Positions 22,796 to 53,005 of a stretch of DNA of 64,000 nt are shown in pieces; the first letter of the stretch is position 1; every line of letters starts with the position of its first letter. A program made the position numbers and the translations under genes. The stretch lies in the NCBI RefSeq assembly GCF_055900595.2, contig NZ_CM148325.1, one strand, 5' to 3'. Under the pieces are notes generated by a model. The model made no database searches and was not told the DNA's origin. It saw only the letters and a program-made list of their open reading frames with translations.

Positions 22796-22955
22796 ATGAG
22801 TTGTCTAGTATTTAAGCCTGTTATTAAGGGAGGGCAAATAGACTTGTTCGGACGTCGTGTTTTAGCTGCAAGTAGGTTAAATGCAACACTGACAAGTATT
22901 ATCTGGCCTACAATGTCATTGAGGAAATGTAGGCCAGAGATGAATCCAACTAATA

Positions 22956-23607: not shown

Positions 23608-24624
23608 TTAATCATCCGGCGTCAGTTCGCCGCGCAGGTTTTGGCTCATGGCCTTGCGAATGGTTTCAGTATCCAGTTCCTGGCTAAGCAGGTAATGCAG
23701 TTTGGTTAGCGTGGCTTCTACAGTCATATCTGCACCGCCAATAACGCCGGCATGGGCGAGGGCGTTACCGGTGGCATAACCCCCCATGTTCACTTTACCG
23801 GACATACATTGTGTCAGGTTGACTACCACAATTCCGCGATCGCTGGCTTCTTGTAATTCTTGCAGGAAGGCTTTGTTTTGTGGCGCATTACCCACGCCAT
23901 ATGAGCGCAGAATCAATGCTTTCACCGGTTGGCGCAGAAAATTGCGCACGACGTCAGCAGAAATCCCTGGATAAATCGTCACTACGCCAATTGGTTGTGG
24001 GGTGATTGGATGAACGATCAATTCCCCTTCACCGTGCGGGGCGGGTGGCGTATTCAAACGACGAATATGGATACCTGCTTCCAGTAACGGAGGAAGGTTT
24101 GGAGAGGCAAACGCATCAAAACCATCGGCATGGGCTTTGGTGGTACGGTTGCCACGATAAAGTCGATTATTAAAAAAGAGAGTTACTTCGTTGATAGGAT
24201 AATTCGCCGCAACGTACAACGCATTCAGCAGATTAATTTGTCCGTCAGAGCGTAACTCAGCCAGCGGGATTTGTGACCCTGTCACAATGACCGGTTTACC
24301 GAGATTCTCGAGCATGAACGACAGCGCAGAGGCGGTATACGCCATCGTGTCGGTGCCGTGCAGAATGACAAAACCATCATAGTCGTCATAATGCGCTTTA
24401 ATATCTTCAGCAATATGCTGCCAGTCTTCTGGCGTCATATCTGAAGAGTCCATCAGCGGCGTATATTCATGAATGGTGAAATCTGGCATCTCCGGGCGAT
24501 GGAATTCCGGCATCAGCGCCAGTTGGCGTTGTAGATGACCTGACACCGGAATATAACCCTGCTCGGAACGCTGCATCCCGATGGTCCCGCCCGTGTAGGC
24601 GACGTAAATTGATTTCTTTTGCAT
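23608..24624 (-). CDS. ansA: Cytoplasmic L-asparaginase I
   Basis: 338-aa ORF MQKKSIYVAYTGGTIGM with asparaginase catalytic threonine motif. Confidence 0.95.
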   Translation of the reverse strand: MQKKSIYVAYTGGTIGMQRSEQGYIPVSGHLQRQLALMPEFHRPEMPDFTIHEYTPLMDSSDMTPEDWQHIAEDIKAHYDDYDGFVILHGTDTMAYTASALSFMLENLGKPVIVTGSQIPLAELRSDGQINLLNALYVAANYPINEVTLFFNNRLYRGNRTTKAHADGFDAFASPNLPPLLEAGIHIRRLNTPPAPHGEGELIVHPITPQPIGVVTIYPGISADVVRNFLRQPVKALILRSYGVGNAPQNKAFLQELQEASDRGIVVVNLTQCMSGKVNMGGYATGNALAHAGVIGGADMTVEATLTKLHYLLSQELDTETIRKAMSQNLRGELTPDD

Positions 24625-24755
24625 GATATTGATATGAATGATATCGAAAGAGCAAAAGTATATACGTGAGGGGCAGCGAGCGCACCTGGATACTCTGTGG
24701 ATATGAGAAAAGTCCGGCAGAACGGAGGGATTAGTGTCCCGCCGGAGAAAAGTGG

Positions 24756-25478
24756 TTAATCCTGCAACGCATAGGTTACGGTGGTGACTACGCGTACCGT
24801 TTTATTAATCGCCGTAGGATCATCTTCATCACTGCCACTGGCGAAGATCTGGAACACGCCTTGTGAGGCATCGCTAATTGACCCCACCTGGCTACCTGAG
24901 TCCGTTGCAAATTGTAATGCTGCGTTGCGTGCATCTTTGGTGGCGGCGGCAATCATCTCAGCGCGCAGTGCGCCAATACCATTAAAGCGATAGGCGACTT
25001 TGCTCTCAGCGATAGCGCCCTCCGTAGCGACTTGCAGTTCGTTTAATTTCGCGACGACTTTTTCGACAGCAGCAACATTATGGGTTTTTATCGTCACTGA
25101 CCCGTCTGCGTTATAGCGTGGCATTGTGGGATCATCTTTCAGATAAAAGGAATCTGTTCGCTTGCTTGTCCATTGGCCCAGGGTTATCTCTTTCTCGTTA
25201 ATCCCCTGAGCATTGAGTTCGGCAACAATTTTTTTCTGCGCGTCTTCCAGTTTCGGGAACAGTTCGCCGGGAATATTACCCTTAAAGTTAATCGCAATTG
25301 TTAATTCTGCCGTATCTGCGCGAACTTCTTTTTCAGAAAGCCCACGCACATTTACATAACGGTTATTGGTTTTCAAATGTTTAACACCATCGCCAACAAA
25401 ATAACCACAGGCGCTAATCCCCAGTCCGAGGACGATAGCGGCAATTAAAGAGGGGGCCTTATTCACTGATGACTCCAT
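24756..25478 (-). CDS. SIMPL/DUF541-domain periplasmic protein (YggE-like)
   Basis: 240-aa product MESSVNKAPSLIAAIVLGLGISACGYF...; the ORF-track 389-aa version is an artefactual upstream extension running into the IS200 flank; no counterpart between ansA and sppA in recalled K-12. Confidence 0.75.
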   Translation of the reverse strand: MESSVNKAPSLIAAIVLGLGISACGYFVGDGVKHLKTNNRYVNVRGLSEKEVRADTAELTIAINFKGNIPGELFPKLEDAQKKIVAELNAQGINEKEITLGQWTSKRTDSFYLKDDPTMPRYNADGSVTIKTHNVAAVEKVVAKLNELQVATEGAIAESKVAYRFNGIGALRAEMIAAATKDARNAALQFATDSGSQVGSISDASQGVFQIFASGSDEDDPTAINKTVRVVTTVTYALQD

Positions 25479-25539
25479 ATCAGATGCTAAATGAGCAAGG
25501 GAATGTAGTGGAGAGAGGGAGTGAAAGACAGTCCGATTC

Positions 25540-26250
25540 AGGAGTGTGGCCGACAGCATATCGGCCACATTTTTGTGCACAGAAAACCCCCAGCTAGGCT
25601 GGGGGTTCCGGAAAGCTTTCAGCTTTGAGCCAGTTATTAAAACCCCTTTTGATTTGTTAAAACACCTTGCGGTCTGGCAACTGCAAGTGTCAAACAAGAA
25701 ATCAAAAGGGGGTCCCAATGGGGGACGAAAAGAGCTTAGCGCACACCCGCTGGAACTGTAAATATCACATAGTTTTTGCGCCGAAATACCGAAGACTGGC
25801 GTTTTACGGAGAGAAGCGTAGGGCGATAGGCAGTATTTTGAGAAAGCTGTGTGAGTGGAAAAGCGTACGGATTCTGGAAGCAGAGTGCTGCGCAGATCAT
25901 ATCCATATGCTTGTGGAAATCCCACCCAAAATGAGCGTATCCGGCTTTATGGGATATCTGAAAGGGAAAAGCAGTCTGATGCTTTACGAGCAGTTTGGGG
26001 ATTTGAAATTCAAATACAGAAACAGGGAGTTCTGGTGCCGAGGGTACTATGTCGATACGGTGGGTAAGAACACGGCGAAGATACAGGACTACATAAAGCA
26101 CCAGCTTGAAGAGGATAAAATGGGGGAGCAGTTATCGATTCCATATCCGGGCAGCCCGTTTACGGGCCGTAAGTAACGAAGTTGAATGCAAATGTCAGAT
26201 CGTATGCGCCTGTTAGGGCGCGGCTGGTAACAGAGCCTTACAGGCGCATT
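25540..26250 (+). mobile_element. IS200 (IS200/IS605 family), about 0.7 kb, boundaries approximate
   Basis: Contains tnpA below; left end carries the characteristic perfect hairpin gtggccgacagcatatcggccac and a second stem cccccagctaggctggggg upstream of tnpA. Confidence 0.8.
25718..26176 (+). CDS. tnpA: IS200 Y1 (HuH) transposase TnpA
   Basis: MGDEKSLAHTRWNCKYHIVFAPKYRR...HIHMLVEIPPK...YIKHQLEEDK; HuH motif; near-identical to recalled IS200 TnpA. Confidence 0.92.
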   Translation: MGDEKSLAHTRWNCKYHIVFAPKYRRLAFYGEKRRAIGSILRKLCEWKSVRILEAECCADHIHMLVEIPPKMSVSGFMGYLKGKSSLMLYEQFGDLKFKYRNREFWCRGYYVDTVGKNTAKIQDYIKHQLEEDKMGEQLSIPYPGSPFTGRK

Positions 26251-26285
26251 TGAAAAACCTCCGGCTATGCCGGAGGATATTTATT
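26250..26285 (-). terminator. sppA Rho-independent terminator
   Basis: Minus-strand hairpin cctccggcatagccggagg followed by TTTTT just downstream of the sppA stop. Confidence 0.55.
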
Positions 26286-26292
26286 GCAGGAT

Positions 26293-28149
26293 TTAACGCA
26301 CGTTGGCGCAGGTCAGGCAAAACGCATAACGGTTTTGTGGGTCGTTAAACGCTGCCAGCTTGTCGCTTTCACTTTTAACGGTAGAGGCTACCGAGGCCAG
26401 CGGTGCAGGTAACATGGCCTGGAACGCATCTGGCAACATTGCCCGGACAGAACCAGACATATTGTCCATCACTTTGTCGAAGAAGGTCGGTTCATCAACG
26501 TAGTATTCCAGATGCCACTGTTTCACTTTTGCCAGCTCTGCCGCTTTGGCAACCGCATCATCGAAATCCCCGAGACTATCGACCAGCCCGTTAGCTTTTG
26601 CATCCTGACCGGTCCAGACGTGGCCCTGGGCGATTTTATCAATCTGCTCCGGCGTCGAATGACGCGCATCAGCAACCAGCGTGATAAAGCGTTTATAGCC
26701 ATTCTCAATGCTTAACTGCATCATCTGCTGCGCTTCCGGCGGCAGTGCCTTGGTGATAGAAACATCCGCTAGCGGTGAAGTTGAGACGCCATCGGTATGA
26801 ACACCAATCGAATCCAAACTATTTTCTACGGTAGTGATCACGCCGAAGATACCGATAGAACCGGTCAGGGTGCTGGGGTTAGCCACAATGTAATTAGCTG
26901 GCGTGGAAATCCAGTAACCACCAGATGCCGCCATGCCGCCCATCGATACAACCACCGGCTTACCCGCTGCCCTGGCTGCTGCCAGTTCAGCGCGAATCAC
27001 TTCAGAGGCGGTAACGCTGCCGCCAGGGCTATTAACACGCAGAACAATCGCTTTCACTTTCGGGTCAAGGCGAGCGTCGCGGATTTGTGCCGCAGTGGTA
27101 TCACCGCCAACATTCCCCTGAGTTTCCTCGCCATCCATAATTGCGCCATTAGCGAAGACGACACCGATACTGTCACCGGTATCTGCCGGCGTTTTCAATG
27201 CGTAATCGTAATAACTGATGGCGCGATAATTTTTATCAGTCTTACTCCAGCCGAACTCTTTGGTCAGAGCTTTTTCGATTTCGGCACTTGATGCCAGTGC
27301 ATCGACCAGCTTGTTTTCCAGCGCATATTTCGCGGTATCGCCACCGGTTTTGGTTAAACCCTTAAGCAACCCTTGCGCACCAGGGAATACCTGCTGAGCA
27401 GGGATCTGCCGGTTAGCGGCAACAGTATTCAGATAGTTTTGCCACAGCTCACCGATCCAGCGGCTGTCAGCTTCGCGGGCTGCCGGTGACATATCATCAC
27501 GAATAAACGGTTCAACGGCAGATTTATACGTACCCACGCGGAACACATGGGTGGAAACTTTCAGCTTATCCAGCAACGATTTGTAGTACAGGCCGTTGGT
27601 AGCAAAACCGTGCAGATCCACCACGCCTTGTGGAGATAGCCAAATTTTGTTGGCGAAACTGGCGAGATAATATTGCCCCTGGCTGTAGTTCTCGCCTATG
27701 GCATAAACTGGTTTCCCGCTGTCACGAAACTCTTTCAGGGCTTTGCCGATGTACTGCATAGACGGCTGGTCGCCGCCTGCGAAGTTTTTCAGATCCATCA
27801 CGATACCGGTGATATTGCGGTCGTCCTTCGCCTGGCGAATGGTGTTGACGATATCAAACAGTGAGTTTTCCTGCAGACGATCGGAACTGGCACCAAGCAG
27901 CTGGCGGCTTAGCTTACTAAACCGCTGAGAACTGTCGGGTTTATCGACGATTACACCAGATATGTCCAGCAGCAGCGCGCCACGACTGGCCGTTTCTTTC
28001 GAATCACCACCACTGACCTGCATCCAAATCCCCACACCAACCAGTACGAGAAAAATAAAGAACAGGTTAAGTACCATTTCACGGACGAAATTCAGCAGAC
28101 GCCACGTCCATTTAAAAAATCCGGCAATAAATCGCCAAAGGGTTCGCAT
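26293..28149 (-). CDS. sppA: Signal peptide peptidase A (protease IV)
   Basis: ORF track 26293-28161 trimmed to [14 protein letters not shown] (618 aa); tandem ClpP/crotonase-like domains. Confidence 0.93.
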
Positions 28150-43408: not shown

Positions 43409-44659
<1,251 letters not shown>

Positions 44660-46448: not shown

Positions 46449-47126
46449 CTATTTTCCGATAAATTCAACGCTGGCGCCGGTGGCATTACCGTCAGCACCA
46501 ACCGTGACGGTCACTTTGTCGTACGCACGGTCTTCAGGATTGAACACTTCAAACTCAACCTTATTGCCTTTTACTTCGTAAGAGCCAAAATCAGCGGTTT
46601 CTGTTATTTCCTCGTCATATTCCCGGGCGTATGCCTGCCGGGCAGCCTGCAGGACGGAATCTTTATTAATAGTGGTCGTCTGTTTCGGGGAAAAACCGGC
46701 AAGTGATGTGACAAATTTCGGACAGACCTTCAGCATATCACCGCGGGTGAATTCCATTCGTACACCAAATGCCTGTAAAACGGACACATCACGCTCTGCT
46801 ATGGAGTGAACGGCTTTTTTGACCATTTCCGGCGCCTGTCCGACTTCCACCTCAACAGCCCTGAATCCTGTCTGCTGATTACACATTTGTGATGTGGGGA
46901 TCAGGTTACCGTTAATGCTGATACGGTTGCCCAGGAGCGTCTGTACGCCATTCGGGCATCCCTGCATCAGGCCGGTAATACCAATCGTGCCATTTTTCAG
47001 CATTACCAGCGCCTGACCATCTTCCGTCATGGTCTGACACCAGCCGTTTTTGACAGCCCAGTTGCCGGCGGAGGCGGAGAATGATGCCACAGTGAACAGC
47101 AGGGGAAAAAGAATTCTGGTATTCAT
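46449..47126 (-). CDS. Hypothetical exported protein
   Basis: 225-aa ORF with N-terminal signal peptide [20 protein letters not shown]; no family recognised. Confidence 0.5.
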
Positions 47127-47244
47127 GACTGACCTCTGAAATTAAAGAGCGTGTTATTGATAATGACAGACGGTATACGGCAGTGGTTACCGTAATCCGT
47201 TGTCGTGTAAAGGTATACGGTTGCCACGGGGGACTCCGGAGCGT

Positions 47245-48129
47245 TCAGAACAGGTGATCCCACAGTGTGACCAGCAGGTGGATAATGCGGTCCCGGGTTT
47301 TGCGCAGAAGCTGTAACATCCAGGCCGGAAAACTGAAACGGGCAACGGCGTCGTCAAAACTTTTCCCGATGGTTTCACCAAAAGTCTGTTGTGCGTGTTT
47401 CTGGACCCGTTCAGAGCGGTTTTCCCCCCGGATATGTGAATAAACCGCGCTGGTTGCCTGTGGCGGCAGGGCGTGGATCATCAGTGACACCAGTGCCGGA
47501 ATATTCCAGCCGACAGGCGCGGCAACGGGGAGTACCGGAAATGATGAAGGGAACAGGGTTGCCACCCGGGCTGTCACCGTCGCCAGCGAGAGTTCCTGGT
47601 GACGGGACGGGCATTTTTCTGTGTCGTTCCATTCTTCAGCAGGAAATACGCGATCGGCATGGCTGAGAACAAACAGAAAACGCGAGGGATCTGCACCTTC
47701 ATTCAGTAAAAACTGATGCATGGCGATGTCGGCAGCATACGCACGTTCATCAGCCCGCAGGATCCAGATAATCAGATCCAGTTCGGGCAGTAACTGACTG
47801 TAAAGTGCCCGGTATTCCTGATCATGCTGTGGTGTTTCGCCAGTGCCGGGCAGATCGACCAGCGTCATTCTTCGTTCACCGGGCTGAAAGGTAAGACGAT
47901 GAGCCTGACGGGTGCAGCCGTTCAGCGGATGCGTGGCGCAGACACGGGACTGAAAAATGGCATTGCACAGGCTGCTTTTTCCGGCACCGGATTTACCCAT
48001 AATGCCAATCACGGGCTCGTAATGAATAACACTGTGGAGATGTTCAAGGATTTTCTGGCGAATTTCTTCAGGAAGAAACGTCAGATATGATTTCACTTGT
48101 GCGGAGAGGGAAGAATGGCTGAATGACAT
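47245..48129 (-). CDS. Island-associated GTPase (YeeP/YfjP/YkfA family)
   Basis: 294-aa ORF with P-loop GIMGKSGAGKSSL and DLPG switch motif. Confidence 0.8.
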   Translation of the reverse strand: MSFSHSSLSAQVKSYLTFLPEEIRQKILEHLHSVIHYEPVIGIMGKSGAGKSSLCNAIFQSRVCATHPLNGCTRQAHRLTFQPGERRMTLVDLPGTGETPQHDQEYRALYSQLLPELDLIIWILRADERAYAADIAMHQFLLNEGADPSRFLFVLSHADRVFPAEEWNDTEKCPSRHQELSLATVTARVATLFPSSFPVLPVAAPVGWNIPALVSLMIHALPPQATSAVYSHIRGENRSERVQKHAQQTFGETIGKSFDDAVARFSFPAWMLQLLRKTRDRIIHLLVTLWDHLF

Positions 48130-48234
48130 ACCGGTATCCTGTTGATTTCACTGAACCGGATCACACTAATCCGGTTTATCATTCAGGTAATATGGGCGTG
48201 AAAAAATCTGGAGTGACAAAGTTCGGGAGGAGTG

Positions 48235-49185
48235 ATGGCATCACTGTCGATTAATACGCTACGCCGAATGAGCATTTGTAAAAGTCAGGCCTGGAAAGAT
48301 ACCCAGCGAATACTGAAGCGTAGTGGACTTGTGTACAGAGGGGAACGGTCAGAATCGTTTGATCCTGAGAAACATTTTAATCGTTATACGGTGCGTTATC
48401 TGTACCTGCTTAACATAATTGCGCTTAAGATAAGGTCGGTTAGTAAATTTTCCTGTTGGATCGAGGTGGGACAATGCCATCGTATGACTGGTAAACATTT
48501 ATCTCTTAATGCCCCGCCTTTTATGCTGATTCCGCGTAGTATCCGGAGAAAAGTGGATGGATTCAGACAGTCAAAAGGTGAAGCAACCCCAAAATCGGCT
48601 CAACCGTTCACGGGCAGTTTGTATGAGGTTTTGAGAAAGGAGAGCGATTCAGCTAAGCTGGACGCATGGATTGCTGAACTGCCTCTGAACTTGCAGGAGG
48701 AGGGAAAGGAAATCTCAGTCATGGGATTTAGTCCACGGGCTGTGGCCCGACCTGTTCTTCGGTCAGCATCCCCGACGTTTGAACTGTTTTATCAGGAGTA
48801 TCAATCCCTAAGATTAAAATCTGTTTTTAAATTTGAACCAAGATTTGAACAACTTTTAACAAGACTGAGCTTTAGAAAACAATCAATTCTCAGAAAACAA
48901 CAATACAGGGTTAAATCGCAATTACTGGAGAGACTGGGGAATGTGTTGTTTTTCACGTCGCTTTATAACCAGGGATGTTTAGAGGAGTTTATAAATGCAC
49001 TTGTGGAAAAGGAGGACATTTATCTGAAAATGTCCCCTGGGGAGGAAAAGGTGAAAGCACACCAGAAAATGGTTAACTACATTGAAGCGTTCTGCAACAA
49101 AATGACGGAAAAATACCTGATGCCCGCAGCAAGCAGACACTACAAAAAGAAGAAAATCGCCAGGAGCGAAAGTGGTGAAAGTTAA
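48235..49185 (+). CDS. Hypothetical basic protein (gene A of convergent AT-rich pair)
   Basis: 316 aa from ATG at 48235 (GGAGG upstream); low-GC codon usage unlike the flanking backbone; no family recognised. Confidence 0.5.
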   Translation: MASLSINTLRRMSICKSQAWKDTQRILKRSGLVYRGERSESFDPEKHFNRYTVRYLYLLNIIALKIRSVSKFSCWIEVGQCHRMTGKHLSLNAPPFMLIPRSIRRKVDGFRQSKGEATPKSAQPFTGSLYEVLRKESDSAKLDAWIAELPLNLQEEGKEISVMGFSPRAVARPVLRSASPTFELFYQEYQSLRLKSVFKFEPRFEQLLTRLSFRKQSILRKQQYRVKSQLLERLGNVLFFTSLYNQGCLEEFINALVEKEDIYLKMSPGEEKVKAHQKMVNYIEAFCNKMTEKYLMPAASRHYKKKKIARSESGES

Positions 49186-49970
49186 TCCAGTCTATCGTAC
49201 AGAATCAGTTGTTCCAGAATAGCCTGCTGTGTTGTTTTCCGCTCTCTGGTCAGTCTGTCCAGAGCGCTTTTTGCGGATGGCGATATCTTTACGTTGATTT
49301 GTACCCGTTTATCTTTTTTTCCATCGATAAACTGTTTTCTGAATGCATTGTGCATCTTGTCGAAAAATCTTTCTTTTGCAGCGAATCCTAGGTGAAATTC
49401 TTTTGGCGTCAGTAAACAGGGTGTGTCTGTGGGGAATAACATTTTTAGTAAAACTACAATGGCAATATATCTTTCGTTATCATTTACAGGATTAAACCAG
49501 GAAAGATATGTGGGTGAGATACGTGCATCAATATATTCCCATGCCCATTTCAGTTGTTCGGTATTCTTTTTAAGCCATTTGGCTTCGTTTCTCTTTTCGA
49601 GTCCCAGCCAGTTTTGATGCATTATTGAGATAATCCGATCTGCTTCCCCATAAAGGATTAACGCATTAATCCATTTCCCTATAACATTCAGTCGTGTTTC
49701 ATGACTTGAAGGAATAATTGTCATGGGGTTATCCTTCATAACGATCACCCCCTTCAAGGCAGAGTTGAACTCAGATTCATTATTAAGTTTAAGTTTTTCG
49801 GGAACTGTATGAGACATAATTAACCAGAACCAGAATGCTGCAATTTCATTTTTTCTGATCCATTCAGGTATGTGATTATCTGCCAGATTATTATCATTCA
49901 ATAAATGCTCGGTTGTTTTATTTTTCCAGTCATATCTATTCACGTTATAACCGCCTTTATATTGTTTCAT
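49182..49970 (-). CDS. Hypothetical protein with C-terminal ribbon-helix-helix-like motif (gene B)
   Basis: 262 aa from ATG at 49970 (GAGG upstream; ORF track extends to a GTG at 50057); C-terminus KRVQINVKISPSAKSALDRLTRERKTTQQAILEQLI has strand-helix-helix pattern; stop overlaps gene A stop in a TTAA. Confidence 0.5.
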   Translation of the reverse strand: MKQYKGGYNVNRYDWKNKTTEHLLNDNNLADNHIPEWIRKNEIAAFWFWLIMSHTVPEKLKLNNESEFNSALKGVIVMKDNPMTIIPSSHETRLNVIGKWINALILYGEADRIISIMHQNWLGLEKRNEAKWLKKNTEQLKWAWEYIDARISPTYLSWFNPVNDNERYIAIVVLLKMLFPTDTPCLLTPKEFHLGFAAKERFFDKMHNAFRKQFIDGKKDKRVQINVKISPSAKSALDRLTRERKTTQQAILEQLILYDRLD

Positions 49971-50087
49971 CTGATTACGCCTCAATCGTTTTCTTTTCTG
50001 GTGATTTTCACCATCACATGTCAGTTGTATATGCAAGGGGATCAATAAAAATATCACCCTGCAAGCACTTCAAAGCTGATTATGGGG

Positions 50088-50151
50088 ATATTCTAGAACT
50101 ATTCACAAAACTATTCCAGACATATCAAGAACTATTTCTTGACCTATTCAT
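50088..50151. repeat. Four iteron-like direct repeats A(A/C)CTATT(C/T) upstream of gene B
   Basis: tagaactattcac, aaaactattcca, agaactatttctt, gacctattcat within 64 bp. Confidence 0.45.
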
Positions 50152-50323
50152 AATAAAATAAAACATGCTATCAACTACGGCTCATATTCTCCTTGGGGGT
50201 GTCGTTGTACTGTTCGACTGTTCTTGTGGTCAGATTAACAATCTGAAGAGTAAAAGCGACAGTAATCTGTCTGTTATAGTGGCGATAAAAACACTGAATG
50301 CGCATCCTGTATGTGAAATCCTG

Positions 50324-50590
50324 TCATGTAGAGCAGTAAGCAATGACAGACATGCATGTTATATGTGAAGGGGGCCGGGAGACGACATAATCAGTATGGC
50401 TGTCATTCTGGTTGTAAAACGCGATCACTTTCCGGGGGTAAAAGATGATATGGAGGTTGACAAACGGTTTGCTTCGGATTGTCTTTTCTGGGGCCTGAAA
50501 TACGAGGGCAGAAAAATAATTCCAGAGTAAATCTGCTCTGTTTTTAGGACAGAAAACTCCATGCTGGCTGTAAAAGTGAAAAATTAACAC
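50324..50590 (-). pseudogene. 3' portion of an unidentified ORF interrupted by IS10
   Basis: 88-aa frame begins inside the IS10 target duplication; the same frame is open across the duplication into the sequence on the far side of IS10 (51935 onward). Confidence 0.35.
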
Positions 50591-50596
50591 CCAGTA

Positions 50597-51925
50597 CTGA
50601 TGAATCCCCTAATGATTTTTATCAAAATCATTAAGTTAAGGTAGATACACATCTTGTCATATGATCAAATGGTTTCGCCAAAAATCAATAATCAGACAAC
50701 AAAATGTGCGAACTCGATATTTTACACGACTCTCTTTACCAATTCTGCCCCGAATTACACTTAAAACGACTCAACAGCTTAACGTTGGCTTGCCACGCCT
50801 TACTTGACTGTAAAACTCTCACTCTTACCGAACTTGGCCGTAACCTGCCAACCAAAGCGAGAACAAAACATAACATCAAACGAATCGACCGATTGTTAGG
50901 TAATCGTCACCTCCACAAAGAGCGACTCGCTGTATACCGTTGGCATGCTAGCTTTATCTGTTCGGGCAATACGATGCCCATTGTACTTGTTGACTGGTCT
51001 GATATCCGTGAGCAAAAACGGCTTATGGTATTGCGAGCTTCAGTCGCACTACACGGTCGTTCTGTTACTCTTTATGAGAAAGCGTTCCCGCTTTCAGAGC
51101 AATGTTCAAAGAAAGCTCATGACCAATTTCTAGCCGACCTTGCGAGCATTCTACCGAGTAACACCACACCGCTCATTGTCAGTGATGCTGGCTTTAAAGT
51201 GCCATGGTATAAATCCGTTGAGAAGCTGGGTTGGTACTGGTTAAGTCGAGTAAGAGGAAAAGTACAATATGCAGACCTAGGAGCGGAAAACTGGAAACCT
51301 ATCAGCAACTTACATGATATGTCATCTAGTCACTCAAAGACTTTAGGCTATAAGAGGCTGACTAAAAGCAATCCAATCTCATGCCAAATTCTATTGTATA
51401 AATCTCGCTCTAAAGGCCGAAAAAATCAGCGCTCGACACGGACTCATTGTCACCACCCGTCACCTAAAATCTACTCAGCGTCGGCAAAGGAGCCATGGAT
51501 TCTAGCAACTAACTTACCTGTTGAAATTCGAACACCCAAACAACTTGTTAATATCTATTCGAAGCGAATGCAGATTGAAGAAACCTTCCGAGACTTGAAA
51601 AGTCCTGCCTACGGACTAGGCCTACGCCATAGCCGAACGAGCAGCTCAGAGCGTTTTGATATCATGCTGCTAATCGCCCTGATGCTTCAACTAACATGTT
51701 GGCTTGCGGGCGTTCATGCTCAGAAACAAGGTTGGGACAAGCACTTCCAGGCTAACACAGTCAGAAATCGAAACGTACTCTCAACAGTTCGCTTAGGCAT
51801 GGAAGTTTTGCGGCATTCTGGCTACACAATAACAAGGGAAGACTCACTCGTGGCTGCAACCCTGCTTACTCAAAATCTATTCACACATGGTTACGTTTTG
51901 GGGAAATTATGAGGGGATCTCTCAG
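50597..51925 (+). mobile_element. IS10 (IS4 family), complete 1329-bp copy
   Basis: Outside end CTGATGAATCCCCTAATGATTTT at 50597, inside end ...GGGGATCTCTCAG at 51925; perfect 9-bp target-site duplication CACCCAGTA at 50588-50596 and 51926-51934. Confidence 0.93.
50704..51912 (+). CDS. IS10 transposase
   Basis: 402-aa ORF MCELDILHDSLYQFCPELHLKRLNSLTLACHALLDCKTLTLTELGRNLPTKARTKHNIKRIDRLLGNRHL... matching recalled IS10/Tn10 transposase almost exactly. Confidence 0.95.
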   Translation: MCELDILHDSLYQFCPELHLKRLNSLTLACHALLDCKTLTLTELGRNLPTKARTKHNIKRIDRLLGNRHLHKERLAVYRWHASFICSGNTMPIVLVDWSDIREQKRLMVLRASVALHGRSVTLYEKAFPLSEQCSKKAHDQFLADLASILPSNTTPLIVSDAGFKVPWYKSVEKLGWYWLSRVRGKVQYADLGAENWKPISNLHDMSSSHSKTLGYKRLTKSNPISCQILLYKSRSKGRKNQRSTRTHCHHPSPKIYSASAKEPWILATNLPVEIRTPKQLVNIYSKRMQIEETFRDLKSPAYGLGLRHSRTSSSERFDIMLLIALMLQLTCWLAGVHAQKQGWDKHFQANTVRNRNVLSTVRLGMEVLRHSGYTITREDSLVAATLLTQNLFTHGYVLGKL

Positions 51926-53005
51926 CACCCAGTATGTATGGAAGTCTGAAGATGTTGAGAATGTCGGTATGATACTATATACACATATTTTACTAAGTAT
52001 TTTTACTAAGCATTTCAGTAAGTGTTATACACGTATTTTCTACTAAGTGTTTTACCAGACATACACGTGTTTTCATAAACAGCCCTATAAGTGTTTTCAT
52101 TAAGCATTGCTGTACACATTGCTTTGTCTGAAACACATCCAGTTTAGTAAATCTTTACGTTAGCTAAAATCAGTTTAAAGCTGCTGTAAAACCTTTCTGT
52201 TTAAGCAATCAATCTGCTATTCGATTTTACTGATGTTGCGTTTAACCTTTTCTGAGATTTCGAGTTTCGACGTTAGCATGAGAAAAGTATCTTTACGCTA
52301 AATCAACCCGAACTTTCCTGAAGTAATCTGACGTTTTTTTCGATGTGCTTACGACGATTCTGTTAAACGACTTTCTGGATGTTTTGATAACAATCAGATT
52401 GAGGCATTAACGATTCCTGACGTTTTCTTTTCCGTGTAAGGTCATTCTTTTTGTCATGAGGTTTCTTCTTGCATTGCGAAAGTGTGATGAACGGTTTTGG
52501 TGTTTTTGATTCAGATAAGGTTTACGTTATCGATGGTTAACCGTTTTTATGGTGCGTAGTGAAACGTAACTTTTTCAGGATGAGAAAATCGATTCTGATG
52601 TTGGTGATTTTTGTTCTTGTGGCGGGGTTTATCTGTAAACAGGTTTTAAACGTGTCATTCACATCCGTGATTGAGTTGTGTGATTAAGCTGTAGGTTTTG
52701 GGGTTGTTGTTGATTTGCATTACCAGGAAGCGTTCTGGTTGCGTTTCTGGTGTTTTGTTCGAATGTTCTGTGGATCCTTTTCCCTTCTGACTTTTCTCGT
52801 TGTCCATGTCGTTTTTAAATCCATTCGCTGTTCTTGAGTGTTTTTACCCTGCGTGTAGAATTATCTTTTCGTTCCGGGATGGTTTGTTCCGTTTCAATCA
52901 CTCTTAATCAGAGAGTTGTAGCATTGCTCAATGCCGGATGCCGTAAAGTTTTACCGCGGTGATTAATGATGTGAAGTCAATCCAAATCAACGGAGATCTC
53001 TCATC

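What the first reader, a model, noticed from the sequence alone, without database searches (positions are those of the whole stretch)
24756..26292. SIMPL-domain gene plus IS200 occupy the ansA-sppA interval
In recalled K-12, ansA and sppA are neighbours. Here a 240-aa YggE-like periplasmic protein gene and a complete-looking IS200 lie between them. The IS200 is identified by its near-identical TnpA and its characteristic hairpins, and it sits between the SIMPL gene start and the sppA terminator. IS200 is typical of Salmonella and only some Escherichia lineages, so this is an informative lineage marker and could affect expression of the adjacent gene.
Basis: partly seen in the sequence, partly recalled or inferred. 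Interest (0 to 1): 0.5.

Follow-up and report, generated by a model that had tools for sequence, protein, structure and literature searches.

The report
IS200 beside an ancestral SIMPL gene
Between ansA and sppA this E. coli genome carries an old Escherichia envelope-protein gene that K-12 has lost, plus a complete IS200 insertion sequence found only in one narrow lineage; both are ordinary and already annotated in public genomes.

Summary
Between ansA and sppA lie a SIMPL/DUF541 gene (24756-25466, minus strand) and a complete 711-bp IS200 (25575-26285, plus strand). K-12 has neither.

The interpretation needs correcting in five places.
- The SIMPL gene is the ancestral state of this locus, not a newcomer. 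E. albertii, E. whittamii and two unnamed Escherichia species have it at the same place, as do 943 of 5426 complete E. coli genomes. K-12-type lineages lost it.
- It starts at a conserved GTG, giving 236 aa, not 240. It shares only the Pfam domain with YggE.
- IS200 is not rare in E. coli: 38% of complete genomes hold a near-full copy. This particular insertion is in only 8 of 5426; five of the eight are published as ST485, "cryptic clade I". It is a good marker for that narrow group.
- The element sits 7 nt after the sppA stop, directly behind a native hairpin and T-run.
- There is no target duplication.

Fourteen independent copies show the same target: a terminator-like hairpin and a T-rich tail ending TT. 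The predicted effect, untested, is that the SIMPL gene is cut off from sppA transcription. Nothing here is new in kind.

The parts
23608..24624 (-). ansA (asparaginase 1), the flanking core gene
   Evidence: ORF. RefSeq annotation of a 99.99% identical locus (identity). 97.9% nucleotide identity to K-12 ansA.
24705..24746 (-). Terminator-like hairpin (24713-24746) and U-rich tail (24705-24712) just after the SIMPL stop. Probable end of the SIMPL transcript, lying upstream of ansA.
   Evidence: RNA fold -18.6 kcal/mol, z = -3.4. Its function is inferred.
24756..25466 (-). SIMPL/DUF541 envelope-protein gene, 236 aa from a GTG start. An upstream in-frame ATG at 25478 is not conserved. The N-terminus is a hydrophobic signal or anchor with a lipobox-like ISAC.
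   Evidence: Pfam PF04402 E 3.2e-18 over the full model. RefSeq calls it a 'SIMPL domain-containing protein'. GTG and the AAGGAG/ATGGAG ribosome-binding site are conserved across Escherichia species. Solved-structure relatives are 10am_A (E 1e-27) and 7c50_A (E 4e-26).
25545..25574 (+). Native intergenic hairpin (25545-25569) and T-run (25570-25574) on the plus strand. This is the target structure behind which IS200 integrated.
   Evidence: DNA fold -10.6 kcal/mol, z = -6.4. The stem and loop are identical in the Escherichia orthologous loci examined, including E. albertii. The same hairpin-plus-T layout is seen at 13 of 14 independent IS200 sites.
25575..26285 (+). Complete IS200 (711 bp) of the IS200/IS605 family. 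No inverted repeats and no target duplication.
   Evidence: 711-bp difference from the empty site. Ends fixed by 14 copies and a tandem pair. 100% identical to a copy at another site in strain ST2747 (H61). About 96% identical to copies annotated IS200C, 91% to Salmonella IS200F and 87% to IS1541.
25585..25607 (+). IS200 left-end perfect hairpin (AACCCCCAGC-TAG-GCTGGGGGTT). In Salmonella IS200 this is the bidirectional terminator.
   Evidence: Fold. Its role as a bidirectional rho-independent terminator (nt 12-34) is described in PMC4513863.
25585..25708 (+). tnpA 5' UTR with the stem-loop that sequesters the ribosome-binding site. The antisense sRNA art200 (STnc490) is encoded opposite this region.
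   Evidence: Rfam RF01405 at 146.4 bits against a gathering score of 56, covering the full model. Biology from PMC4513863.
25718..26176 (+). tnpA, an intact 152-aa Y1 HUH transposase. The HIH motif is in ...CCADHIHMLV... and the tyrosine in ...RGYYVDTVG....
   Evidence: NCBIfam NF033573 at 144 bits against a cut-off of 55, on the in-frame slice 25709-26164. RefSeq gives tnpA WP_000502112.1 at the same coordinates in L002. The motifs were read from the translation.
26204..26285 (+). IS200 right end: a long imperfect hairpin (26204-26249), a perfect hairpin (26258-26276) and the tail ATATTTATT (26277-26285). On the minus strand the perfect hairpin is followed by TTTTTCAAAT, so it now stands as a terminator-like signal 17 nt after the sppA stop.
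   Evidence: Fold. Terminator-like on both strands. RNA fold of the sppA-sense strand -18.1 kcal/mol, z = -3.6. The perfect hairpin and tail are identical in the 13 copies where they could be located.
26293..28149 (-). sppA (signal peptide peptidase), intact. Its stop codon lies 7 nt from the IS200 right end.
   Evidence: ORF. RefSeq coordinates transferred from L002.

Best explanation
Two unrelated things share this interval.

(1) The SIMPL/DUF541 gene encodes a 236-aa exported or membrane-anchored envelope protein. It is the ancestral occupant of the sppA-ansA spacer in the genus Escherichia. It was deleted in K-12-type lineages and survives in about 17% of complete E. coli genomes.

(2) A complete IS200 integrated by the family's single-strand 'peel and paste' route. 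It entered directly 3' of the T-run that follows a conserved hairpin between sppA and the SIMPL gene. There is no target duplication. Its active (top) strand lies on the lagging-strand template. The insertion happened in the ancestor of a narrow lineage in which IS200 has expanded to about 15-17 copies; the members with published typing are ST485, cryptic clade I.

Shown: the identity, ends and completeness of IS200, the target structure, and the distribution of both features.

Inferred: in genomes with the empty site, the SIMPL gene is read through from sppA. No sigma-70-like promoter is found, and the hairpin has no U-tract on the sense strand. If so, IS200 now places two bidirectional terminator hairpins between sppA and the SIMPL gene. 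That would end sppA transcripts 17 nt after the stop codon and reduce or abolish SIMPL expression in this lineage.
For: Identity and ends of IS200.

Target rule. At 14 independent sites the left flank is T-rich and ends in TT. At 13 of the 14 a hairpin of -7 to -15 kcal/mol ends 2-6 nt before the IS. Mean folding energy is -9.8 kcal/mol for left flanks and -3.0 for right flanks. A tandem pair shows one copy integrated directly behind another copy's right-end hairpin and ATATTTATT tail. A preprint reports terminator-like sequences over-represented immediately upstream of ISs, most strongly for IS200/IS605 elements (10.1101/2025.07.22.666184).

Orientation. The window is the reverse complement of K-12 at 1.85 Mb, and the cumulative GC skew of the plus strand is positive. 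So the plus strand, which is the tnpA sense strand, has the leading-strand sequence and is therefore the lagging-strand template. This matches the family's known bias (PMC5371812; PMC5027513).

Ancestry of the SIMPL gene. The order sppA-SIMPL-ansA is seen in three other Escherichia species, and sppA-SIMPL in E. albertii, whose contig ends inside the gene. Nucleotide identity of the gene is 92.8, 88.9, 88.3 and 81.0%, declining in step with sppA at 93.3, 91.9, 90.0 and 88.4%. In E. coli it is always single-copy and chromosomal, in 943 of 5426 genomes.

Lineage. Eight of 5426 genomes carry the insertion. The same eight are 100% identical across the pncA-yeaC junction. Five are published as ST485, clade I.

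Polarity. No promoter-like site was found upstream of the SIMPL gene in the occupied or the empty locus. The right-end hairpin is terminator-like on both strands. On the sppA-sense strand the right-end hairpin carries a T/U-run; the left-end hairpin is also followed by a T-run there (read). The left-end hairpin is a documented bidirectional terminator (PMC4513863).
Against: - No transcription data were available, so the operon and polarity steps are inference only.
- The promoter scan is a strict sigma-70 consensus search. It would miss weak or alternative-sigma promoters in the 108 bp kept between the IS and the GTG. That stretch is unusually conserved: 100% identical among the E. coli loci compared.
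- The SIMPL ORF is still intact in this lineage, which would be unexpected after long silencing. The insertion may simply be recent.
- In the window the hairpin and T-run are not the terminator of a co-oriented upstream gene, unlike at least seven of the other sites examined.
- The SIMPL gene is 99.9% identical to that of ST131 while its flanks are only 97.4-97.7% identical. Recombination has therefore touched this locus, and descent has not been purely vertical.
Confidence: 0.85

Rival explanations
1. The SIMPL gene is a horizontally acquired islet, inserted between ansA and sppA in some lineages. On this view K-12 shows the original state.
For: Only 17% of complete E. coli genomes have it. 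The single-genome-per-species scan found no close relative outside Escherichia; the next best match is 54% identical, in a metagenome bin. The gene is 99.9% identical to ST131's while the flanks are 97.4-97.7%, so it does move by recombination. The hairpin-plus-T module appears inverted between the two haplotypes.
Against: It sits at the same position and in the same orientation in E. albertii, E. whittamii and two unnamed Escherichia species. Its divergence scales with that of the flanking genes. It has no associated mobility gene, and the intergenic hairpin is invariant across species. A single gain at the base of the genus followed by losses needs fewer events.
Confidence: 0.1
2. The IS200 insertion is neutral for its neighbours. 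The SIMPL gene has its own promoter in the 108 bp retained upstream, and sppA terminates efficiently with or without the IS.
For: The 108-bp upstream stretch is 100% conserved among the E. coli loci compared and 92.6-98.1% in three other species, which suggests a regulatory element. The SIMPL ORF remains intact in all 8 carriers. IS200 usually sits in intergenic DNA behind terminators, where it does little harm.
Against: No promoter-like site was found on either strand in the occupied or the empty locus. On the sense strand the native hairpin has no U-tract, so read-through from sppA is expected at the empty site.
Confidence: 0.4
3. The IS200 copy is an inactive relic that merely looks complete.
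For: IS200 is notoriously dormant. Its transposase is held down by a weak promoter, a sequestered ribosome-binding site and the antisense RNA art200 (PMC4513863).
Against: The tnpA ORF is intact and both ends are intact. The copy is 100% identical over 711 bp to a copy at a different site in another strain (H61). The carrier genomes show 15-17 places matching the 1.9-kb query, nearly all of them IS200 copies. The median is 2 IS200 places per genome that has any. These figures point to recent transposition.
Confidence: 0.1

Closest known systems
IS200 of Salmonella enterica (copies annotated IS200F) and E. coli copies annotated IS200C
   Same: Same architecture: about 710 bp, a single tnpA, a left-end perfect hairpin terminator, a stem-loop sequestering the ribosome-binding site, the art200/STnc490 region and right-end hairpins. 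Same terminal sequences in the copies examined.
   Different: It is a sequence variant. DNA identity is about 96% to copies annotated IS200C and about 91% to a Salmonella plasmid copy annotated IS200F. It is 711 bp long, against the 707 bp quoted for Salmonella IS200. RefSeq names its transposase only 'IS200/IS605 family transposase', WP_000502112.1.
IS1541 of Yersinia pestis
   Same: Same family, same layout and the same target context. The one copy examined follows a GC-rich hairpin and a T-rich tail ending TT, and ends in ATATTTATT.
   Different: 87% DNA identity.
IS608 / ISDra2 (the mechanistic models of the IS200/IS605 family)
   Same: A Y1 HUH transposase, subterminal hairpins rather than inverted repeats, integration 3' of a short target with no duplication, and a lagging-strand-template orientation bias.
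   Different: Those elements also carry tnpB and recognise defined tetra- or pentanucleotides. TTAC for IS608 is documented; TTGAT for ISDra2 is from my own knowledge. Here the target looks like a hairpin followed by a T-rich tail ending TT. No biochemical work on this element was consulted.
Solved SIMPL-domain proteins 7C50/7C51 ('SIMPL domain-containing protein') and 10AM ('Periplasmic protein')
   Same: They align over almost the whole mature protein at E 4e-26 and 1e-27. Chain 10am_A also has an N-terminal hydrophobic segment that aligns with the query's.
   Different: They are distant relatives. Their organism and function were not established here. The aligned chain lacks the lipobox-like Cys that is conserved in the Escherichia proteins.
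E. coli YggE (b2922; DUF541, 'oxidative stress defense protein')
   Same: K-12 annotates YggE as a DUF541 protein, the same Pfam family (PF04402, SIMPL/DUF541) as the window protein. Similar length, 246 against 236 aa.
   Different: No detectable pairwise similarity (BLASTP E = 34). It fails the YggE equivalog model at 19.5 bits against a cut-off of 249. It lies at a different locus.

Membership tests
IS200/IS605 family, IS200 group | Encodes a Y1 HUH transposase (TnpA) of about 150 aa | tested here: met
   NCBIfam NF033573 transpos_IS200 at 144.4 bits against a cut-off of 55. The ORF 25718-26176 gives 152 aa. HIH and a C-terminal YY are present in the translation.
IS200/IS605 family, IS200 group | No terminal inverted repeats; subterminal hairpins at both ends | tested here: met
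   Left-end hairpin 25585-25607 and right-end hairpins 26204-26249 and 26258-26276, with z-scores of -5.3 and -4.9. The ends GTGCACAG... and ...ATATTTATT are not inverted copies of each other.
IS200/IS605 family, IS200 group | Integration 3' of a preferred target without target-site duplication | tested here: met
   The empty and occupied sites differ by exactly the 711-bp element. The left flank always ends in a T-rich run closing with TT, and the base after the right end varies (G, T, A or C) among 13 copies.
IS200/IS605 family, IS200 group | IS200-specific 5' UTR structure and art200 (STnc490) region | tested here: met
   Rfam RF01405 at 146.4 bits against a gathering score of 56, covering model positions 1-124 of 124.
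IS200/IS605 family, IS200 group | Active strand on the lagging-strand template (a statistical bias of the family, not a requirement) | tested here: met
   The window is the reverse complement of K-12 at 1.85 Mb and the plus-strand GC skew is positive. This is a single copy, so it is only consistent with the bias, not proof of it.
IS200/IS605 family, IS200 group | Ability to excise and integrate as single-stranded DNA | not testable with these tools
   Supported only indirectly: identical copies at different sites and 15-17 matching places per carrier genome.
SIMPL / DUF541 (Pfam PF04402) | Full-length match to the SIMPL domain | tested here: met
   PF04402 E 3.2e-18, model positions 1-205 of 205, residues 42-236 of the 240-aa reading. 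Sequence relatives among solved structures at E 1e-27 and 4e-26.
SIMPL / DUF541 (Pfam PF04402) | Export signal or membrane anchor, implying an envelope location | tested here: inconclusive
   The N-terminus reads NKAPSLIAAIVLGLGISAC. It is a hydrophobic segment with a lipobox-like I-S-A-C conserved in the Escherichia orthologues. No signal-peptide predictor was available, and the 54% identical relative lacks the Cys.
YggE equivalog (NCBIfam NF008299, oxidative stress defense protein) | Score above the curated cut-off; recognisable similarity to E. coli YggE | tested here: not met
   19.5 bits against a cut-off of 249. BLASTP against K-12 YggE gives E = 34.

The most novel reading that the evidence does not exclude
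IS200 may choose its sites by structural mimicry. Host intrinsic terminators (a GC hairpin plus a T-rich tail ending TT) resemble the element's own right end (a hairpin plus ATATTTATT). That resemblance, rather than later selection, would explain why these elements sit just behind terminators. In this lineage the rule would have led IS200 to an invariant intercistronic hairpin, splitting an ancestral sppA-SIMPL transcription unit.
Probability: 0.25. Interest if true: 0.35.

Novelty: already known. Interest (0 to 1): 0.12.

Why it matters
Its value is mostly practical.
- The insertion is a clean presence/absence marker for the 8 carrier genomes, a set that includes the eatA-carrying ST485 cryptic clade I isolates sampled across Africa and Asia. 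IS200 has expanded in these genomes.
- The locus shows that K-12 is the derived state here. An old Escherichia envelope-protein gene of unknown role has been lost from most laboratory-type E. coli.
- If the predicted polar effect is real, ST485 strains are natural knock-downs of that gene. They could be compared with near-identical empty-site strains.
- The uniform hairpin-plus-T-run target at 13 of 14 sites is a tidy illustration of IS200 site choice. It could be tested biochemically, but it extends known biology rather than overturning it.

Tried and rejected
- Other IS200 copies in the window: none.
- A 2-bp target duplication: the apparent TT/TTG repeat at the junctions comes from the conserved target tail and the IS end. 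Other copies have a variable base after the right end, so this was rejected.
- IS boundaries 25576-26286, my first reading from the empty site alone: rejected in favour of 25575-26285, because the final G is not conserved among copies and the tandem pair joins ...TTTATT directly to GTG....
- YggE paralogy: rejected.
- A sigma-70 promoter for the SIMPL gene: none found at the scan's stringency in the occupied or the empty locus. My manual inspection found only weak 3-4 of 6 hexamers.
- Literature on the function of SIMPL proteins in E. coli: a full-text search gave nothing relevant to this gene.
- Literature on IS200 target choice: the IS200 regulation paper has no target-site data. Only the general over-representation of terminators was found.
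- Structure prediction and fold search were not used, because sequence already finds solved relatives.
- A plus-strand antisense transcript ending at the native hairpin and T-run was considered. No promoter-like site supports it.
Full report
**What is there.** Window 20.7-30 kb reads gapA(-), msrB(+), yeaC(+), pncA(-), ansA(-, 23608-24624), a SIMPL-domain ORF(-), an IS200(+), sppA(-, 26293-28149), ydjA(+), selD(+). RefSeq annotates a locus that is 99.99% identical in the same way (L002). K-12 MG1655 has sppA and ansA 166 bp apart with nothing annotated between them.

**The SIMPL gene.**
- The protein matches Pfam SIMPL/DUF541 over the whole model, at E 3.2e-18.
- It has sequence relatives among solved structures: 10am_A at E 1e-27 and 7c50_A at E 4e-26.
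- It is not a YggE orthologue or a recognisable paralogue. The NCBIfam YggE equivalog scores 19.5 bits against a cut-off of 249. BLASTP against K-12 YggE gives E = 34.
- The ATG that gives 240 aa is AAG in Escherichia sp. E1V33, E. whittamii and E. albertii, where it is part of an AAGGAG ribosome-binding site. The GTG six bases after that site is conserved and is the RefSeq start, giving 236 aa.
- The N-terminus, NKAPSLIAAIVLGLGISAC, is a hydrophobic export or anchor segment with a lipobox-like ISAC. It is conserved in the Escherichia orthologues. Whether the protein is lipidated was not testable.

**Where the SIMPL gene comes from.**
- It is single-copy and chromosomal in 943 of 5426 complete E. 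coli genomes, including ST131 and O157:H7.
- A scan of one genome per bacterial species found close relatives only in Escherichia. These were Escherichia sp. MOD1-EC7003 (96% protein identity), Escherichia sp. E1V33 (94%), E. whittamii (92%) and E. albertii (84%, gene cut by the contig end). The next best hit is 54% identical.
- In three of these species the order is sppA-SIMPL-ansA. In E. albertii it is sppA-SIMPL up to the contig end.
- Nucleotide identity of the gene to the window is 92.8, 88.9, 88.3 and 81.0% in those four species. For sppA it is 93.3, 91.9, 90.0 and 88.4%. The gene has therefore diverged in step with its neighbours, somewhat faster.
- The simplest reading is that the gene is ancestral to this locus in the genus and was deleted in K-12-type lineages.
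- Two complications remain. The gene and both adjoining spacers are 99.9-100% identical to ST131 while ansA and sppA are 97.4-97.7% identical, which suggests a local recombination patch. The hairpin-plus-T-run module next to sppA also appears inverted between the K-12 and the SIMPL-bearing haplotypes.
- In three genomes the gene is split by IS1, so it is dispensable.

**The IS200.**
- An empty site in strain 2017-02-2CC, which is 99.1-99.7% identical on both sides, lacks exactly 711 bp. The junction has a 3-base ambiguity (TTG).
- I resolved this by collecting 13 further independent copies. Eleven came from E. coli chromosomes, one from a Y. pestis plasmid (IS1541B) and one from a Salmonella plasmid (IS200F).
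- In every E. coli copy the element starts GTGCACAG (GTGAACAG in one). Wherever the right end could be located, in 13 of the 14 copies, it ends ...CCGGAGGATATTTATT. The next base is G, T, A or C.
- In strain ABW_A19 two copies lie head to tail, with ...ATATTTATT joined directly to GTGAACAG.
- The element is therefore window 25575-26285, and there is no target duplication.
- tnpA (25718-26176) is intact at 152 aa. The in-frame slice scored 144 bits against NCBIfam transpos_IS200. The HIH motif and the tyrosine region are present.
- The 5' UTR matches Rfam STnc490 over the full model at 146 bits. This region holds the left-end bidirectional terminator (IS nt 12-34) and the stem-loop that sequesters the ribosome-binding site. 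The antisense RNA art200 is encoded opposite it (PMC4513863).
- The hairpins fold strongly: left end 25585-25607, right end 26204-26249 and 26258-26276.
- This copy is 100% identical over 711 bp to a copy at the fadR-ycgB site of another strain. It is about 96% identical to copies annotated IS200C, about 91% to IS200F and 87% to IS1541.

**Why it is here.**
- At all 14 independent sites, 5-7 of the last 8 flank bases are T and the flank ends in TT.
- At 13 of the 14 sites a hairpin of -7 to -15 kcal/mol ends 2-6 nt before the element.
- Mean folding energy of the 40-nt left flanks is -9.8 kcal/mol. For the right flanks it is -3.0 kcal/mol.
- At seven or more of the other sites this structure is the terminator of a co-oriented upstream gene such as fadR, hrpA, topA, htpX or emrB.
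- In the window the target is the hairpin 25545-25569 with the T-run 25570-25574 on the plus strand.
- The element's own right end, a perfect hairpin followed by ATATTTATT, has the same form as its targets. The tandem pair shows that it can serve as a target.
- A recent preprint reports terminator-like sequences over-represented just upstream of ISs, most strongly for the IS200/IS605 family. It interprets this as limiting transposase expression (10.1101/2025.07.22.666184).
- The plus strand of the window corresponds to the K-12 reverse strand at 1.85 Mb and has positive cumulative GC skew. The tnpA sense strand is therefore on the lagging-strand template, as the family's single-strand mechanism favours (PMC5371812; PMC5027513).

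**Position relative to the neighbours.**
- The right end of the IS is 7 nt from the sppA stop codon.
- The native hairpin lies on the SIMPL side of the IS, not the sppA side.
- The hairpin that looks like an sppA terminator (26258-26276, followed on the minus strand by TTTTTCAAAT) belongs to IS200.
- On the sppA/SIMPL sense strand the native hairpin has no U-tract.
- No sigma-70-like promoter was found upstream of the SIMPL gene, in the occupied or the empty locus.
- A terminator-like hairpin follows the SIMPL stop.
- I therefore infer that at empty sites the SIMPL gene is transcribed with sppA. IS200, with terminator hairpins at both ends acting in both directions, would now end sppA transcripts early and insulate the SIMPL gene.
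- This is untested. The retained 108-bp spacer is very conserved and might hold a promoter that the scan cannot see.

**Lineage.**
- Only 8 of 5426 complete genomes carry this insertion. Each shows 15-17 matching places. The median is 2 IS200 places among genomes that have any.
- The same eight are the only genomes 100% identical across the pncA-yeaC junction.
- Five of them (100117, E200086, E400634, E500002, E600003) are published as ST485, OND:H45, cryptic clade I. They are eatA-positive isolates from the Global Enteric Multicenter Study (PMC13064198).
- The window is thus closest to this group of eight, but it is not identical to any complete genome searched. An IS10 copy at about 50.6 kb interrupts an island that other genomes hold uninterrupted.
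- IS200 as such is not a rare marker in E. coli. 2063 of 5426 genomes hold a copy covering at least 80% of it, and 2641 hold some part of it.

**Verdict.** Everything here belongs to well-known kinds and is already annotated in RefSeq. The only mildly new angle is the very regular hairpin-plus-T-run target and its resemblance to the element's own right end. A testable prediction follows: ST485 has uncoupled an ancestral sppA-SIMPL unit.

Noticed in passing
window 22796-22955 (pncA-yeaC spacer): The eight-gene ydjE-ydjL cluster that K-12 has between pncA and yeaC is absent here. pncA abuts yeaC. The same junction, at 80% query coverage or more, is seen in 1089 of 5426 complete E. coli genomes.
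   Followed up: partly
window 50642-50711 (-), within 47000-53000: A full Rfam RNA-OUT match (97 bits) marks an IS10 copy inside a low-GC island (GC 0.416 at 48-52 kb). No complete E. coli genome covers 80% or more of 47-53 kb. The best matches lack about 1.3 kb, so this IS10 insertion seems private to the source genome.
   Followed up: partly
window 44468-44590 (-): A full-length match to the Hfq-binding sRNA isrC (145 bits against a gathering score of 39), near the edge of the same island-like region.
   Followed up: no
window 25545-25574, compared with K-12 L003 5695-5860: The hairpin next to sppA has its T-run on the strand antisense to sppA in SIMPL-bearing genomes. In K-12 the T-run is on the sppA-sense strand, where it forms an ordinary terminator. 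The module looks inverted between the two haplotypes. The stem and loop are invariant from E. coli to E. albertii. This is unexplained.
   Followed up: partly
window 24625-25574, compared with L035 (ST131): The SIMPL gene and both adjoining spacers are 99.9-100% identical to ST131, whereas flanking ansA and sppA are 97.4-97.7% identical. This looks like a short recombination patch shared between a clade I lineage and phylogroup B2.
   Followed up: no
L040 (NZ_CP067307.1, downstream of topA): Two IS200C copies lie in direct head-to-tail tandem. The first copy's ...ATATTTATT joins directly to the second copy's GTGAACAG. This shows that the element's right end can act as a target.
   Followed up: yes
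hits H16-H18 (NZ_OX030701.1, NZ_AP022032.1, NZ_AP021998.1): In three genomes the SIMPL gene is split by an IS1 insertion and annotated as two SIMPL fragments flanking an IS1 transposase. The gene is therefore dispensable, at least in those strains.
   Followed up: no
L014 (WQYP01000231.1, 'Phycisphaerales' metagenome bin): The closest non-Escherichia relative of the SIMPL protein (54% identity) lies on a 5.7-kb contig of a metagenome bin labelled Phycisphaerales. This is an odd taxonomic jump that may reflect mis-binning.
   Followed up: no
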